Shown: one piece after another, positions 24,702 through 25,018 of the stretch
Numbering within the stretch: the first letter of the stretch is position 1
Layout: every line of letters begins with the position of its first letter
Virus record (IMG/VR): IMGVR_UViG_3300037743_000223
Location: 1 to 64,000 of that record
Origin: a virus
Strand: one strand, 5' to 3'
Length of the DNA stretch: 64,000 nucleotides
The notes under the pieces: model-generated
What the model saw: only the letters and a program-made list of their open reading frames with translations
The model's database searches: none
Told to the model about the DNA's origin: nothing
Program-made: the position numbers and the translations under genes

Positions 24702-24851
24702 GTGGACCTGCACCCACATGGCCGGCCCGTCGGAGGGCTCTCCTCGCCGGTGGCTTCGGCATGCGCCCCACCCGCCTGAGCCTGGAGGGGCAGCCACCAC
24801 CGGTTCACGGGACGGCGAGCCGGCCATGTGGGTGCAGGTGCTGCTGTTCTG
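24702..24851. ncRNA. structured element 1: 21-bp perfect long-range helix enclosing about 92 nt
   Basis: 24706-24726 pairs with 24819-24839 (21/21 Watson-Crick); inner CCGTC/GACGG; flanks GTGGA (5') and CTGTTCTGT (3'); no coding signal. Confidence 0.45.
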
Positions 24852-25018
24852 TGGACCTGATGCCACGGGGGGAGCCGCCGGGGAAGCCTCTCTGGGGCGT
24901 TCCCGAGCCGTGGCTGCGGGTGCCGGTCGAGAGCCCGACCGCCTGGGCGGCCAGTGATCGTCGCAACTGGTCCGGTCGGCTCCCCTCGTGGCATCAGGGG
25001 GTGTTTCTGTTCTGTTCC
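24851..25018. ncRNA. structured element 2: 21-bp long-range helix enclosing about 101 nt
   Basis: 24856-24876 pairs with 24978-24998 (20 WC plus one G-U on + strand); same GTGGA and CTGTTCTGT flanks; U-rich tail on + strand. Confidence 0.45.

What the first reader, a model, noticed from the sequence alone, without database searches (positions are those of the whole stretch)
24702..25018. Two tandem ~150-nt structured elements closed by 21-bp helices in a 590-bp non-coding gap
No frame between 24600 and 25190 has convincing coding signal. The region does hold two adjacent long-range helices. 24706-24726 pairs with 24819-24839 (21 of 21 Watson-Crick). 24856-24876 pairs with 24978-24998 (20 Watson-Crick plus one pair that is G-U on the plus strand and C-A on the minus strand). 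The two helices have unrelated sequences, but the units share the same frame. Each is preceded by GTGGA and followed within a few nt by CTGTTCTGT. Both interiors (92 and 101 nt) contain GCCG(G)TGGCTKCGG followed by CCCRMCCGCCTGRGC in the same order, plus further nested hairpins such as CCGTC/GACGG. Pairing is kept while sequence is not, which is what a duplicated functional RNA or DNA structure would show. The elements lie downstream of the leftward promoter (predicted TSS near 25090). They could therefore be a ~490-nt structured leader of the 24599-to-21201 operon, acting as an attenuator, an antitermination (put-like) element or a processing element. Read on the plus strand, each resembles a giant hairpin with a U-rich tail, meaning stable sRNAs, but I found no plus-strand promoter. 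A DNA-level role, such as a clt-like locus for the nearby TraB-like translocase or a recombination site, is also possible. I cannot assign it to any RNA family I know.
Basis: seen in the sequence. Interest (0 to 1): 0.8.

Follow-up and report, generated by a model that had tools for sequence, protein, structure and literature searches.

The report
Modular giant hairpins in phage leader
The two ~140-nt hairpins are real, evolutionarily maintained structures that sit in the long untranslated leader of the leftward early operon of an uncultivated actinobacterial phage. They most likely act on that mRNA as double-stranded-RNA processing or stability modules. They are not partners of the nearby Ro60 gene, which has its own Y RNA.

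Summary
Two adjacent long-range helices (24706-24732/24813-24839 and 24856-24882/24972-24998) lie in a non-coding 590-nt gap, far beyond chance.

In 23 of 24 related phage loci, one or two such units occupy the same slot, between a conserved leader next to a leftward promoter and the ribosome-binding site of whatever gene comes first. I found eight unit types. Their closing helices are always 21-27 bp and begin CCTG(C) and end (G)CAGG. Otherwise the helix sequence is completely replaced with compensation: 15 of 20 pairs changed on both sides, 97.7% of cells paired.

The units are modular. They are shuffled in order, combined with two different upstream leaders and many different downstream genes, and absent from one relative. 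They are not dispersed repeats and match no Rfam family.

They do not track the nearby TROVE (Ro60) gene, which carries its own YrlA-like RNA at 26390-26505.

Promoter evidence favours the minus-strand (leftward leader) reading. Wobble-pair statistics show no strand preference, so the strand, and even RNA versus DNA, is not settled.

Best reading (about 0.5): cis-acting double-stranded-RNA modules of the PL leader, acting as RNase III-type processing sites or decay barriers, analogous to the lambda N leader and T7 early RNase III sites. Function is inferred, not shown.

The parts
24706..24839 (-). Hairpin unit 1 (type A1), 134 nt. The closing helix is 24706-24732 with 24813-24839. The interior is a three-way junction carrying the conserved motifs AGGGCTC, CTTCGGC, CCCGCCTGAGCC and TTCACGGG (written on the plus strand).
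   Evidence: Orthologues in L066/L215, L072/L221, L074/L217 and L226. Homologous units D and E2 in other phages show compensatory changes. The strand is assigned from promoter evidence only.
24855..24998 (-). Hairpin unit 2 (type A2), 144 nt. The closing helix is 24856-24882 with 24972-24998. It is homologous to the B2 units of other phages.
   Evidence: The A2 and B2 arms differ by compensated blocks: CAC/GTG versus TTC/GAA, and AT/AT versus GY/RC.
24999..25021 (-). Linker that is pyrimidine-rich on the plus strand and purine-rich on the minus strand. It lies between the last unit and the conserved leader element.
   Evidence: alignment. The same compositional tract is present in all leader I and leader II relatives.
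25022..25074 (-). Conserved leader element I, a small three-way junction. P1 is 25022-25026 with 25070-25074. P3 is 25029-25032 with 25039-25042, loop TTCAAA. P2 is 25046-25050 with 25064-25068, with a 13-nt loop GCTGATCTCGTTT.
   Evidence: P2 covaries (GGCC/GGCC versus GGGGA/TCCCC). P1 shows G-C to A-U and U-A to A-U changes, plus U-G wobbles that exist only on the minus strand.
25097..25125 (-). Leftward promoter PL. The -10 is TAGTAT (25102-25097), the -35 is TTGTCT (25125-25120), with a 17-nt spacer. The inferred start is near 25090.
   Evidence: Read. It falls below the threshold of the consensus scan, but the same arrangement is found in 20 of 23 relatives.
25155..25192 (+). Rightward promoter PR (TTGACA, 16 nt, TAGTAT) with a leaderless GTG start at 25190.
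   Evidence: 10 of 12 matches. The alignment shows -10 hexamers 6-7 nt before the start codons in relatives.
24600..24705 (-). Distal part of the leader. It is C-rich on the minus strand, contains a small hairpin (24633-24643 with 24659-24669), and ends at the Shine-Dalgarno sequence (AAGGGGGAA) of the first gene.
   Evidence: (inverted repeat I11).
24426..24599 (-). First gene of the leftward operon (57 aa, no family match). This gene differs between related phages.
   Evidence: GC3 of 0.86.

Best explanation
The two elements are copies of a modular, cis-acting structural cassette in the ~490-nt untranslated leader of the phage's leftward early operon. In this reading, transcription starts at PL (near 25090) and runs leftward through three parts. 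The first is a conserved ~55-nt three-way-junction element and a purine-rich linker. The second is unit 2 and then unit 1, each a 110-180-nt domain closed by a 21-27-bp double-stranded helix. The third is the ribosome-binding site of the first gene. What selection maintains is a helix about two turns long, not its sequence. I therefore infer that the cassette is read as double-stranded RNA. It would be cleaved by the host RNase III, detaching the regulatory 5' leader from the coding part and setting the mRNA's 5' end. It could also serve as a stable barrier against 5'-to-3' decay, so that expression of whichever gene cassette follows PL is tuned independently of its sequence. Shown: the structure, its conservation through compensation, its fixed slot, its modularity and the leftward promoter. 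Inferred: that the RNA rather than the DNA is the active form, that the minus strand is the active one, and the RNase III / stability mechanism.
For: - **Fixed slot.** In 23 of 24 loci that carry leader I or leader II, one or two units lie between the leader and the Shine-Dalgarno sequence of the first leftward gene, often only 7-45 nt from it. The downstream genes differ between phages.
- **Compensation.** Across 15 distinct arm pairs of six types, 97.7% of cells are paired and 15 of 20 pairs changed on both sides. Slid controls give 33-43%. Further compensated variants appear in L245 and in type E2.
- **Helix length.** It is 21-27 bp in all eight types. That is much longer than simple folding or termination needs, and it matches the roughly two helical turns known to be required by RNase III (established knowledge).
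- **Transcription direction.** A minus-strand promoter-like pair sits 63-91 nt right of the leader motif in 20 of 23 loci. A plus-strand one left of the units occurs in only 4 of 22.
- **Strand of the conserved junction.** Its mid-helix U-G pairs are valid only on the minus strand, and its loops are A-rich on that strand.
- **Locus-specific.** The covariance model and the motif scan find the units only in this context, so this is a locus-specific element, not a repeat family.
- **Precedent.** RNase III processes leaders and intercistronic hairpins of lambda, T7 and T3, and can stabilise, destabilise or unmask mRNAs (PMC5371410).
Against: - **No strand signal in the closing helices.** There are 7 variant positions that are G-U on the plus strand, 8 that are G-U on the minus strand, and 9 other mismatches. 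A typical functional RNA helix shows a clear excess of G-U on its own strand. The pattern fits a DNA-level palindrome, or young unfiltered polymorphism, just as well.
- **Plus strand usually folds better.** For example, type C gives -104.8 versus -85.0 kcal/mol and B2 gives -80.5 versus -72.6. Several fixed wobble pairs are G-U on the plus strand.
- **Conserved interior motifs.** AGGGCTC, CTTCGGC and CCCGCYTGAGCC are not explained by a purely geometric double-stranded-RNA role.
- **Not essential.** One relative (L065) lacks the units, and another (L225) carries a deletion removing half of unit B2 and most of the junction.
- **No expression data.** None exist for this uncultivated phage group.
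Confidence: 0.5

Rival explanations
1. The active form is plus-strand RNA. Each unit would be a giant hairpin followed by a pyrimidine/U-rich tract, acting either as a suboptimal intrinsic terminator or insulator that stops rightward read-through from entering the PL/PR switch, or as a stable antisense RNA against the PL leader.
For: - The plus strand folds more stably in 6 of 8 types.
- There are fixed G-U pairs on the plus strand in types A2, C and E1.
- A T/C-rich tract follows the last unit in every relative.
- Actinobacterial RNA polymerase terminates at imperfect U-tracts with help from NusG (PMC3993855).
Against: - No conserved plus-strand promoter exists. Only 4 of 22 loci have even a weak match, and the units begin 7-45 nt from the start codon of varying leftward genes.
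- The window has a separate hairpin right after the last late gene (12870-12905).
- The tracts are C-rich and, in the window, begin 5 nt after the stem. The terminator scan finds nothing.
- P1 of the adjacent conserved junction is broken on the plus strand in half the sequences.
Confidence: 0.2
2. The palindromes act as DNA, for example as single-strand hairpins used in replication priming or an origin, or as a recombination module boundary. Transcription through them would be incidental.
For: - The wobble statistics show no RNA-type bias (7: 8: 9).
- The units behave as exchangeable cassettes with conserved ends CCTG(C)...(G)CAGG, and are shuffled between leaders and genes.
- Size and shape recall the single-strand origins of rolling-circle plasmids (my own knowledge).
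Against: - Loops of 65-130 bp make cruciform extrusion from duplex DNA unlikely, and tailed double-stranded-DNA phages have no obligatory single-stranded stage (established knowledge).
- The position is locked to a promoter, its leader and a ribosome-binding site, not to replication genes.
- No dispersed copies were found.
- No orientation flips of the interior were seen in any relative, so it is not an invertible segment.
Confidence: 0.12
3. The hairpins are leader terminators that are read through only when the conserved upstream junction modifies RNA polymerase, as in put/nut-like processive antitermination.
For: The architecture is promoter, then a small conserved structured RNA, then large hairpins, then genes. 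This resembles the lambda nutL and HK022 putL leaders (the comparison rests on my own knowledge).
Against: - No U-tract follows any unit on the minus strand.
- Mycobacterial RNA polymerase does not terminate without one, even with NusA and NusG (PMC3993855).
- The same hairpins occur with two unrelated leader types.
- L225 lacks most of the junction yet keeps unit B1.
Confidence: 0.08
4. The two units are Y RNAs (YrlB-like long hairpins) that partner the phage Ro60/TROVE protein encoded 1.5 kb to the right.
For: - A TROVE gene lies at 26561-28156.
- Bacterial Y RNAs lie within 4 kb of rsr, often in pairs, and have a long stem formed by the 5' and 3' ends (PMC4201824).
Against: - Only 2 of the hairpin-bearing loci have TROVE within reach. 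In one of them (L001/L076) TROVE is inverted relative to the units. L065 has TROVE but no units.
- There is no YrlA or other Rfam hit on the units, no GNCGAA motif, and no T or D arm.
- The TROVE gene already has a YrlA-like RNA directly upstream (32.2 bits, E = 3e-5). The same T-arm plus D-arm signature is found upstream of TROVE in 38 of 64 phage loci.
Confidence: 0.04

Closest known systems
Lambda N-gene leader (nutL followed by a large RNase III-processed hairpin before the N ribosome-binding site); T7/T3 early RNase III sites such as R0.3
   Same: The order of parts matches: early promoter, short conserved structured RNA, large hairpin with a long double-stranded stem, then the ribosome-binding site of the first early gene. 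The helix is about two turns long, and sequence is free to vary as long as pairing is kept. RNase III action on lambda, T7 and T3 transcripts is cited in PMC5371410. Details of the N leader are from my own knowledge.
   Different: There is no sequence or family relationship. The host is an actinobacterium. Units are larger (110-180 nt, with branched interiors), come in one or two copies, and are shuffled between phages. Cleavage has not been shown.
Correia (CREE/NEMIS) and similar palindromic miniature elements that form RNase III-sensitive hairpins in mRNAs
   Same: Size is 100-180 bp with terminal inverted repeats of about 25 bp. They lie in untranslated regions and fold into long hairpins when transcribed. 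CREE binds RNase III and is cleaved or protected by it (PMC2649163).
   Different: Correia elements are dispersed multi-copy mobile repeats with a shared terminal-repeat sequence. These units are single-locus, their arm sequences differ between types, and no other copies were found in 854 kb of related loci or in IMG/VR.
5' mRNA stabilisers of Gram-positive bacteria and their phages (5' stem-loops, STAB-SD of cryIIIA, the SP82 RNase III site)
   Same: A stable structure lies in the 5' UTR close to the ribosome-binding site, preceded by purine-rich, Shine-Dalgarno-like tracts on the minus strand, for example GAAGGAGGA in type E loci. The comparison rests on my own knowledge.
   Different: Known stabilisers are short (10-40 nt). 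Nothing here has been tested, and the Shine-Dalgarno-like tract is not present in every type.
Bacterial and phage Y RNAs (YrlA/YrlB)
   Same: There is a long terminal stem, tandem arrangement, and proximity to a TROVE gene in this window (PMC4201824).
   Different: They fail the co-occurrence, motif and tRNA-like-domain criteria. The real YrlA-like RNA is elsewhere, at 26390-26505.

Membership tests
Y RNA / YrlA (Rfam RF02553) | Encoded within about 4 kb of a Ro60/TROVE gene, on the same strand, and co-distributed with it. | tested here: not met
   The window lies 1.5 kb from TROVE. However, L071, L075 and L163 (10 kb searched to the right) and L068, L074 and L067 (7-12 kb to the left) have units and no TROVE. 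L076 has TROVE inverted. L065 has TROVE without units.
Y RNA / YrlA (Rfam RF02553) | A tRNA-like module (T arm and D arm) and a GNCGAAN0-1G motif near the 5' end. | tested here: not met
   No YrlA or tRNA hit on 24300-25500 even at E <= 10. The motifs are absent by reading. By contrast, 26390-26505 aligns to the full YrlA model with T and D arms.
Intrinsic (Rho-independent) terminator / attenuator | A GC-rich hairpin immediately followed by a U-tract on the transcribed strand. | tested here: not met
   On the minus strand no U-tract follows either unit. The scan finds 0 terminator-like sites on either strand. On the plus strand only C/G-interrupted pyrimidine tracts are present, so that strand is inconclusive.
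RNase III substrate | A near-perfect double-stranded RNA helix of roughly 20 bp or more. | tested here: met
   Closing helices are 21-27 bp in all eight unit types, with at most a few mismatches or one 2x2 internal loop.
RNase III substrate | Cleavage by RNase III in vivo or in vitro. | not testable with these tools
   No transcript or cleavage data exist for this phage group.
MITE / Correia-like palindromic repeat | Many dispersed copies sharing the same terminal inverted repeat. | tested here: not met
   Covariance model R1 over 854 kb and the interior-motif scan of IMG/VR recover only copies in the same leader slot. No similar copy was found elsewhere in the window.
Invertible promoter segment (inverton) | The same inverted repeats flanking the interior in both orientations in different genomes. 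| tested here: not met
   Interiors are collinear in all 36 distinct unit sequences and between types A1, D and E2.
put/nut processive antitermination site | A sequence-conserved small stem-loop RNA just downstream of an early promoter that acts on RNA polymerase. | tested here: inconclusive
   This applies to the neighbouring 25022-25074 junction, which is conserved and covarying, not to the giant hairpins, whose sequences are not conserved. Activity cannot be tested here.
Any Rfam 15 family | A covariance-model match. | tested here: not met
   No hit at gathering threshold in the whole window. Over 24300-25500 only two chance-level hits with E > 6.

The most novel reading that the evidence does not exclude
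The units are not merely leader structure. They would be excised at their conserved CCUGC/GCAGG helix ends into stand-alone, highly stable ~110-180-nt RNAs that act in trans. This would be a bacterial-virus counterpart of adenovirus VA or EBV EBER RNAs, for instance decoys that saturate or redirect a host double-stranded-RNA nuclease or an RNA-sensing defence. That would explain the conserved interior motifs, the 1-2 copy modularity and the fast compensated turnover of the stems.
Probability: 0.1. Interest if true: 0.85.

Novelty: new variant of a known kind. Interest (0 to 1): 0.5.

Why it matters
If the reading is right, this is an unannotated family of exchangeable double-stranded-RNA cassettes that a clade of uncultivated actinobacterial temperate phages places between an early promoter and whatever gene follows it. 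It would give a clean natural example of structure-only selection, with complete sequence turnover of 21-27-bp helices. It would also offer a handle on post-transcriptional control (RNase III, RNase J, leader processing) in high-GC phages, where almost nothing is known. The parts could be useful as insulators in Streptomyces expression design. The lack of any wobble-pair strand bias is unusual and keeps open a DNA-level or two-strand role. The side finding matters too: phage Ro60 genes here carry a divergent YrlA directly upstream that Rfam's threshold misses.

Tried and rejected
- **Known RNA families.** Rfam at gathering and at permissive thresholds and ARAGORN gave nothing on the units.
- **Similarity to isolated phages and plasmids.** BLASTN of the gap against phage and plasmid collections, and megablast of 20 kb against phages, gave no match. 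tblastn of the neighbouring 81-aa protein gave no match. The FtsK-like protein has only distant (~30%) Streptomyces and Thermobifida phage relatives, so no cultured relative with expression data exists.
- **Y-RNA hypothesis.** I pursued this seriously after finding TROVE and rejected it on distribution and motifs.
- **Genome and metagenome scans with the leader motif.** They returned 136 loci, nearly all chance matches inside genes. Only L163 and L188 were true relatives. No prophage in a named species was found, so the host is unknown.
- **Trans targets.** There is no significant complementarity of the leader to the rest of the window.
- **Coding potential.** Rejected (indels).
- **Strand assignment.** Single-unit folding energies and structure-dependent wobble counts were circular or inconclusive. 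The structure-independent count on closing helices gave no bias.
- **Other classes considered and dropped.**
  - A riboswitch, because a 21-27-bp P1 cannot switch and there is no Rfam hit.
  - A hammerhead-like core, because CUGAGCC does not fit CUGANGA.
  - An inverton, because no flipped interiors were seen.
  - attP, because the integrase gene is 4 kb away and the motif is not an inverted repeat.

Full report
**1. The observation**

The region 24600-25190 lies between the start codon of a small leftward gene (24426-24599, minus strand) and a leaderless rightward gene (GTG at 25190).

- The repeat finder reports two adjacent inverted repeats, 24706-24732/24813-24839 (27 nt, 93%) and 24856-24882/24972-24998 (27 nt, 89%). 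It also reports the shared GTGGACCTG prefix and TTCTGTTCTGT suffix.
- The 341-nt stretch folds far better than shuffles on both strands, with z = -5.5 and -6.9.
- Inverted repeats this long with 40-220-nt loops appear 0-1 times per shuffled window. The real window has four, two of them here.
- The gap has no codon-position GC periodicity (0.69-0.75 in every frame). Its neighbours have GC3 of 0.86-0.93.
- The interiors taken alone are not more structured than shuffled sequence. The long closing helices are the robust feature.

**2. Context**

The window is a temperate actinobacterial siphophage genome at 71% GC.

- It encodes a tape measure protein, tail proteins and an endolysin on the left.
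- A block of leftward genes includes an FtsK-like protein.
- A divergent promoter region follows.
- Rightward early genes then include a TROVE/Ro60 protein, a large serine integrase, helicases and DnaB.

PR is a textbook TTGACA-16-TAGTAT promoter placed for a leaderless GTG. On the minus strand, TTGTCT-17-TAGTAT (25125-25097) gives a leftward start near 25090. The hairpins therefore lie inside a ~490-nt leader.

**3. The Y-RNA lead and why I dropped it**

A TROVE gene 1.5 kb away made Y RNAs an obvious candidate. Bacterial Y RNAs lie within 4 kb of rsr on the same strand, often in pairs, and have a long terminal stem (PMC4201824). Three results argue against it.

- The units give no YrlA signal.
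- A full-length sub-threshold YrlA match with textbook T and D arms lies at 26390-26505, 55 nt before the probable TROVE start at 26561.
- The same T-arm/D-arm signature sits just upstream of TROVE in 38 of 64 related phage loci.

Distribution is the strongest argument. Most hairpin-bearing phages have no TROVE within 7-12 kb. One has it inverted. One TROVE phage (L065) has the leader but no hairpins.

**4. Relatives**

A 21-nt motif just right of the hairpins (CCCTGGCGGTTCNANNCGCGG, 25024-25044) recovered 11 true relatives in IMG/VR and two in metagenomes. The genome-collection hits were all chance matches. A conserved small lysis-module protein recovered more, and an interior-motif scan added two.

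In all, 24 loci carry one of two alternative leaders:

- leader I, the CCCTGGCGGTTC three-way junction;
- leader II, CCTCCCGGTTCCGGCTTCC...

Of these, 23 have one or two hairpin units between the leader and the Shine-Dalgarno sequence of the first leftward gene. I distinguish eight unit types (A1, A2, B1, B2, C, D, E1, E2) in 36 distinct sequences of 106-176 nt.

**5. Evidence for selection on structure**

Every closing helix is 21-27 bp, starts CCTG(C) and ends (G)CAGG. Between those ends the sequence is replaced wholesale with compensation. Examples on the 5' arm:

- A1 versus B1: ACCCACA versus GGTTGCG
- A2 versus B2: CAC versus TTC
- C versus D versus E2 versus L245: AAGGCACCA versus ATAGCTGGC versus CTAGCTGGC versus ATGGCTGGC

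On an arms-only alignment of 15 distinct arm pairs, 97.7% of cells pair and 15 of 20 pairs changed on both sides. No shuffle reaches this, and slid controls give 33-43%. One caveat is that the units were found as inverted repeats. Against that, they were found at one predefined slot in 23 of 24 loci.

Types A1, D and E2 also share interior sequence (AGGGCTC, CTTCGGC, CCCGCYTGAGCC, TTSACGGG) and interior helices with some compensation. Types C and E1, and types A2 and B2, are likewise related.

**6. Modularity**

- The A1-like unit is next to the ribosome-binding site in type A phages but next to the leader in type E phages.
- The same hairpin types occur with leader I or leader II.
- Downstream genes differ.
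- L072 has the two units abutting with no spacer.
- L225 carries a deletion from mid-B2 into the junction, and L065 has no unit.
- A covariance model of A1+D finds nothing elsewhere in 854 kb. The units are a locus-specific cassette, not a dispersed repeat.

**7. Which strand, and RNA or DNA?**

For the minus strand (leftward leader):

- A promoter-like TTGNNN-16/17-TANNNT sits 63-91 nt right of the motif in 20 of 23 loci. Only 4 of 22 weak plus-strand candidates lie left of the units.
- The conserved junction at 25022-25074 has compensatory changes in P1 and P2. It has mid-helix U-G pairs that exist only on the minus strand, where its loops are A-rich.

For the plus strand:

- It folds more stably in most types.
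- It has some fixed G-U pairs.
- A pyrimidine-rich tract follows the last unit.

A structure-independent count on the closing helices gives 7 positions that are G-U on plus, 8 that are G-U on minus, and 9 other mismatches. Neither strand shows the G-U excess expected of an RNA helix. I regard the strand as probable (minus) but not proven, and a DNA-level role as not excluded.

**8. Mechanism**

A classical terminator or attenuator on the minus strand is unlikely. No U-tract follows the units, and actinobacterial RNA polymerase does not terminate without one, even with NusA and NusG (PMC3993855).

What is conserved is a near-perfect helix about two turns long, placed just upstream of a ribosome-binding site, with free sequence. 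That is the signature of recognition as double-stranded RNA. RNase III processes leaders and intercistronic hairpins in lambda, T7 and T3, and can stabilise, destabilise or unmask mRNAs (PMC5371410).

The order promoter, small conserved RNA element, big hairpin, ribosome-binding site mirrors the lambda N leader (my own knowledge). A role as a barrier to 5'-to-3' decay, as in the 5' stabilisers of Gram-positive bacteria, is compatible and may coexist. These are inferences. The conserved interior motifs remain unexplained and may bind a factor.

**9. Novelty and verdict**

The elements are real, conserved and unannotated. They match no Rfam family and no known repeat family. The kind of element, a structured leader cassette likely read as double-stranded RNA, is known from other phages. 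The modular, shuffled, one-or-two-copy giant-hairpin form in high-GC phages is new. Interest is moderate (0.5): the function is unproven, but the compensated turnover and the absence of strand bias are striking.

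Noticed in passing
window 26390-26505 (+), with TROVE CDS probably 26561-28156: A divergent YrlA-like Y RNA lies directly upstream of the phage Ro60/TROVE gene: T arm ACGGGTTCGAGTCCCGT, closed acceptor-like stem, D arm GTAGCTCAACCGGCAGAGC. It scores 32.2 bits against a gathering score of 69, so Rfam's threshold misses it. The same T/D-arm signature lies upstream of TROVE in 38 of 64 related phage loci.
   Followed up: partly
window 26290-26350 (+): A possible second Y-like RNA. A hairpin beginning GTCGGATACTTC and ending TGATCTCGGG repeats the 5' (CGGATACTTC) and 3' (TGATCTCGGG) flanks of the YrlA-like RNA.
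   Followed up: partly
window 25022-25074: A conserved ~55-nt three-way-junction element lies at about +15 to +70 of the leftward transcript. It has covarying P1 and P2 and near-invariant loops (AAACGAGAWMAGC and GUAGAA on the minus strand). It is a candidate put/nut-like or processing signal in its own right.
   Followed up: partly
L219, L223, L226, L229, L246 (right of the hairpins): A second, unrelated conserved leader (CCTCCCGGTTCCGGCTTCC...CCTGAG.TCTTGTG) replaces the three-way junction in some phages while the same hairpin types are kept.
   Followed up: partly
window 13730-13752 / 13826-13848: A perfect 23-bp inverted repeat (TCATACCAGTAGCGTAGCAGCGC) with a 73-nt spacer lies in the non-coding gap 13357-14282. 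It is comparatively AT-rich and unrelated in sequence to the leader hairpins.
   Followed up: no
window 25100-25122 and equivalents in relatives: Operator-like palindromes lie between PL and PR and differ between phages. Examples are CTAGCGCTAGCAACAGCGCTAG here and TACACCGCGCGGTGTA in L076. This suggests different immunity specificities around a shared leader.
   Followed up: no
window 25155-25192 and relatives: The rightward early operon is leaderless. The -10 hexamer ends 6-7 nt before the GTG/ATG start codon in the window and in most relatives.
   Followed up: partly
L023 2658-2742: A perfect 23-bp hairpin with a 39-nt loop lies just upstream of the TROVE gene of another phage. It is a possible YrlB-like long-hairpin Y RNA.
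   Followed up: no
window about 13000-24600 versus L066-L075: In most relatives the lysis-module genes end only 1-2.4 kb left of the hairpins. The window carries an extra ~11-kb block of leftward genes, including the FtsK-like translocase, inserted there.
   Followed up: partly
L072, L074, L214, L223, L229 (unit A2/B2): Recurrent chimeric helices pair an A2-type 5' arm (GCCACGG) with a B2-type 3' arm (CTCGAAGC). This leaves a 2x2 internal mismatch in the middle of the stem and is evidence of recombination inside the units.
   Followed up: partly
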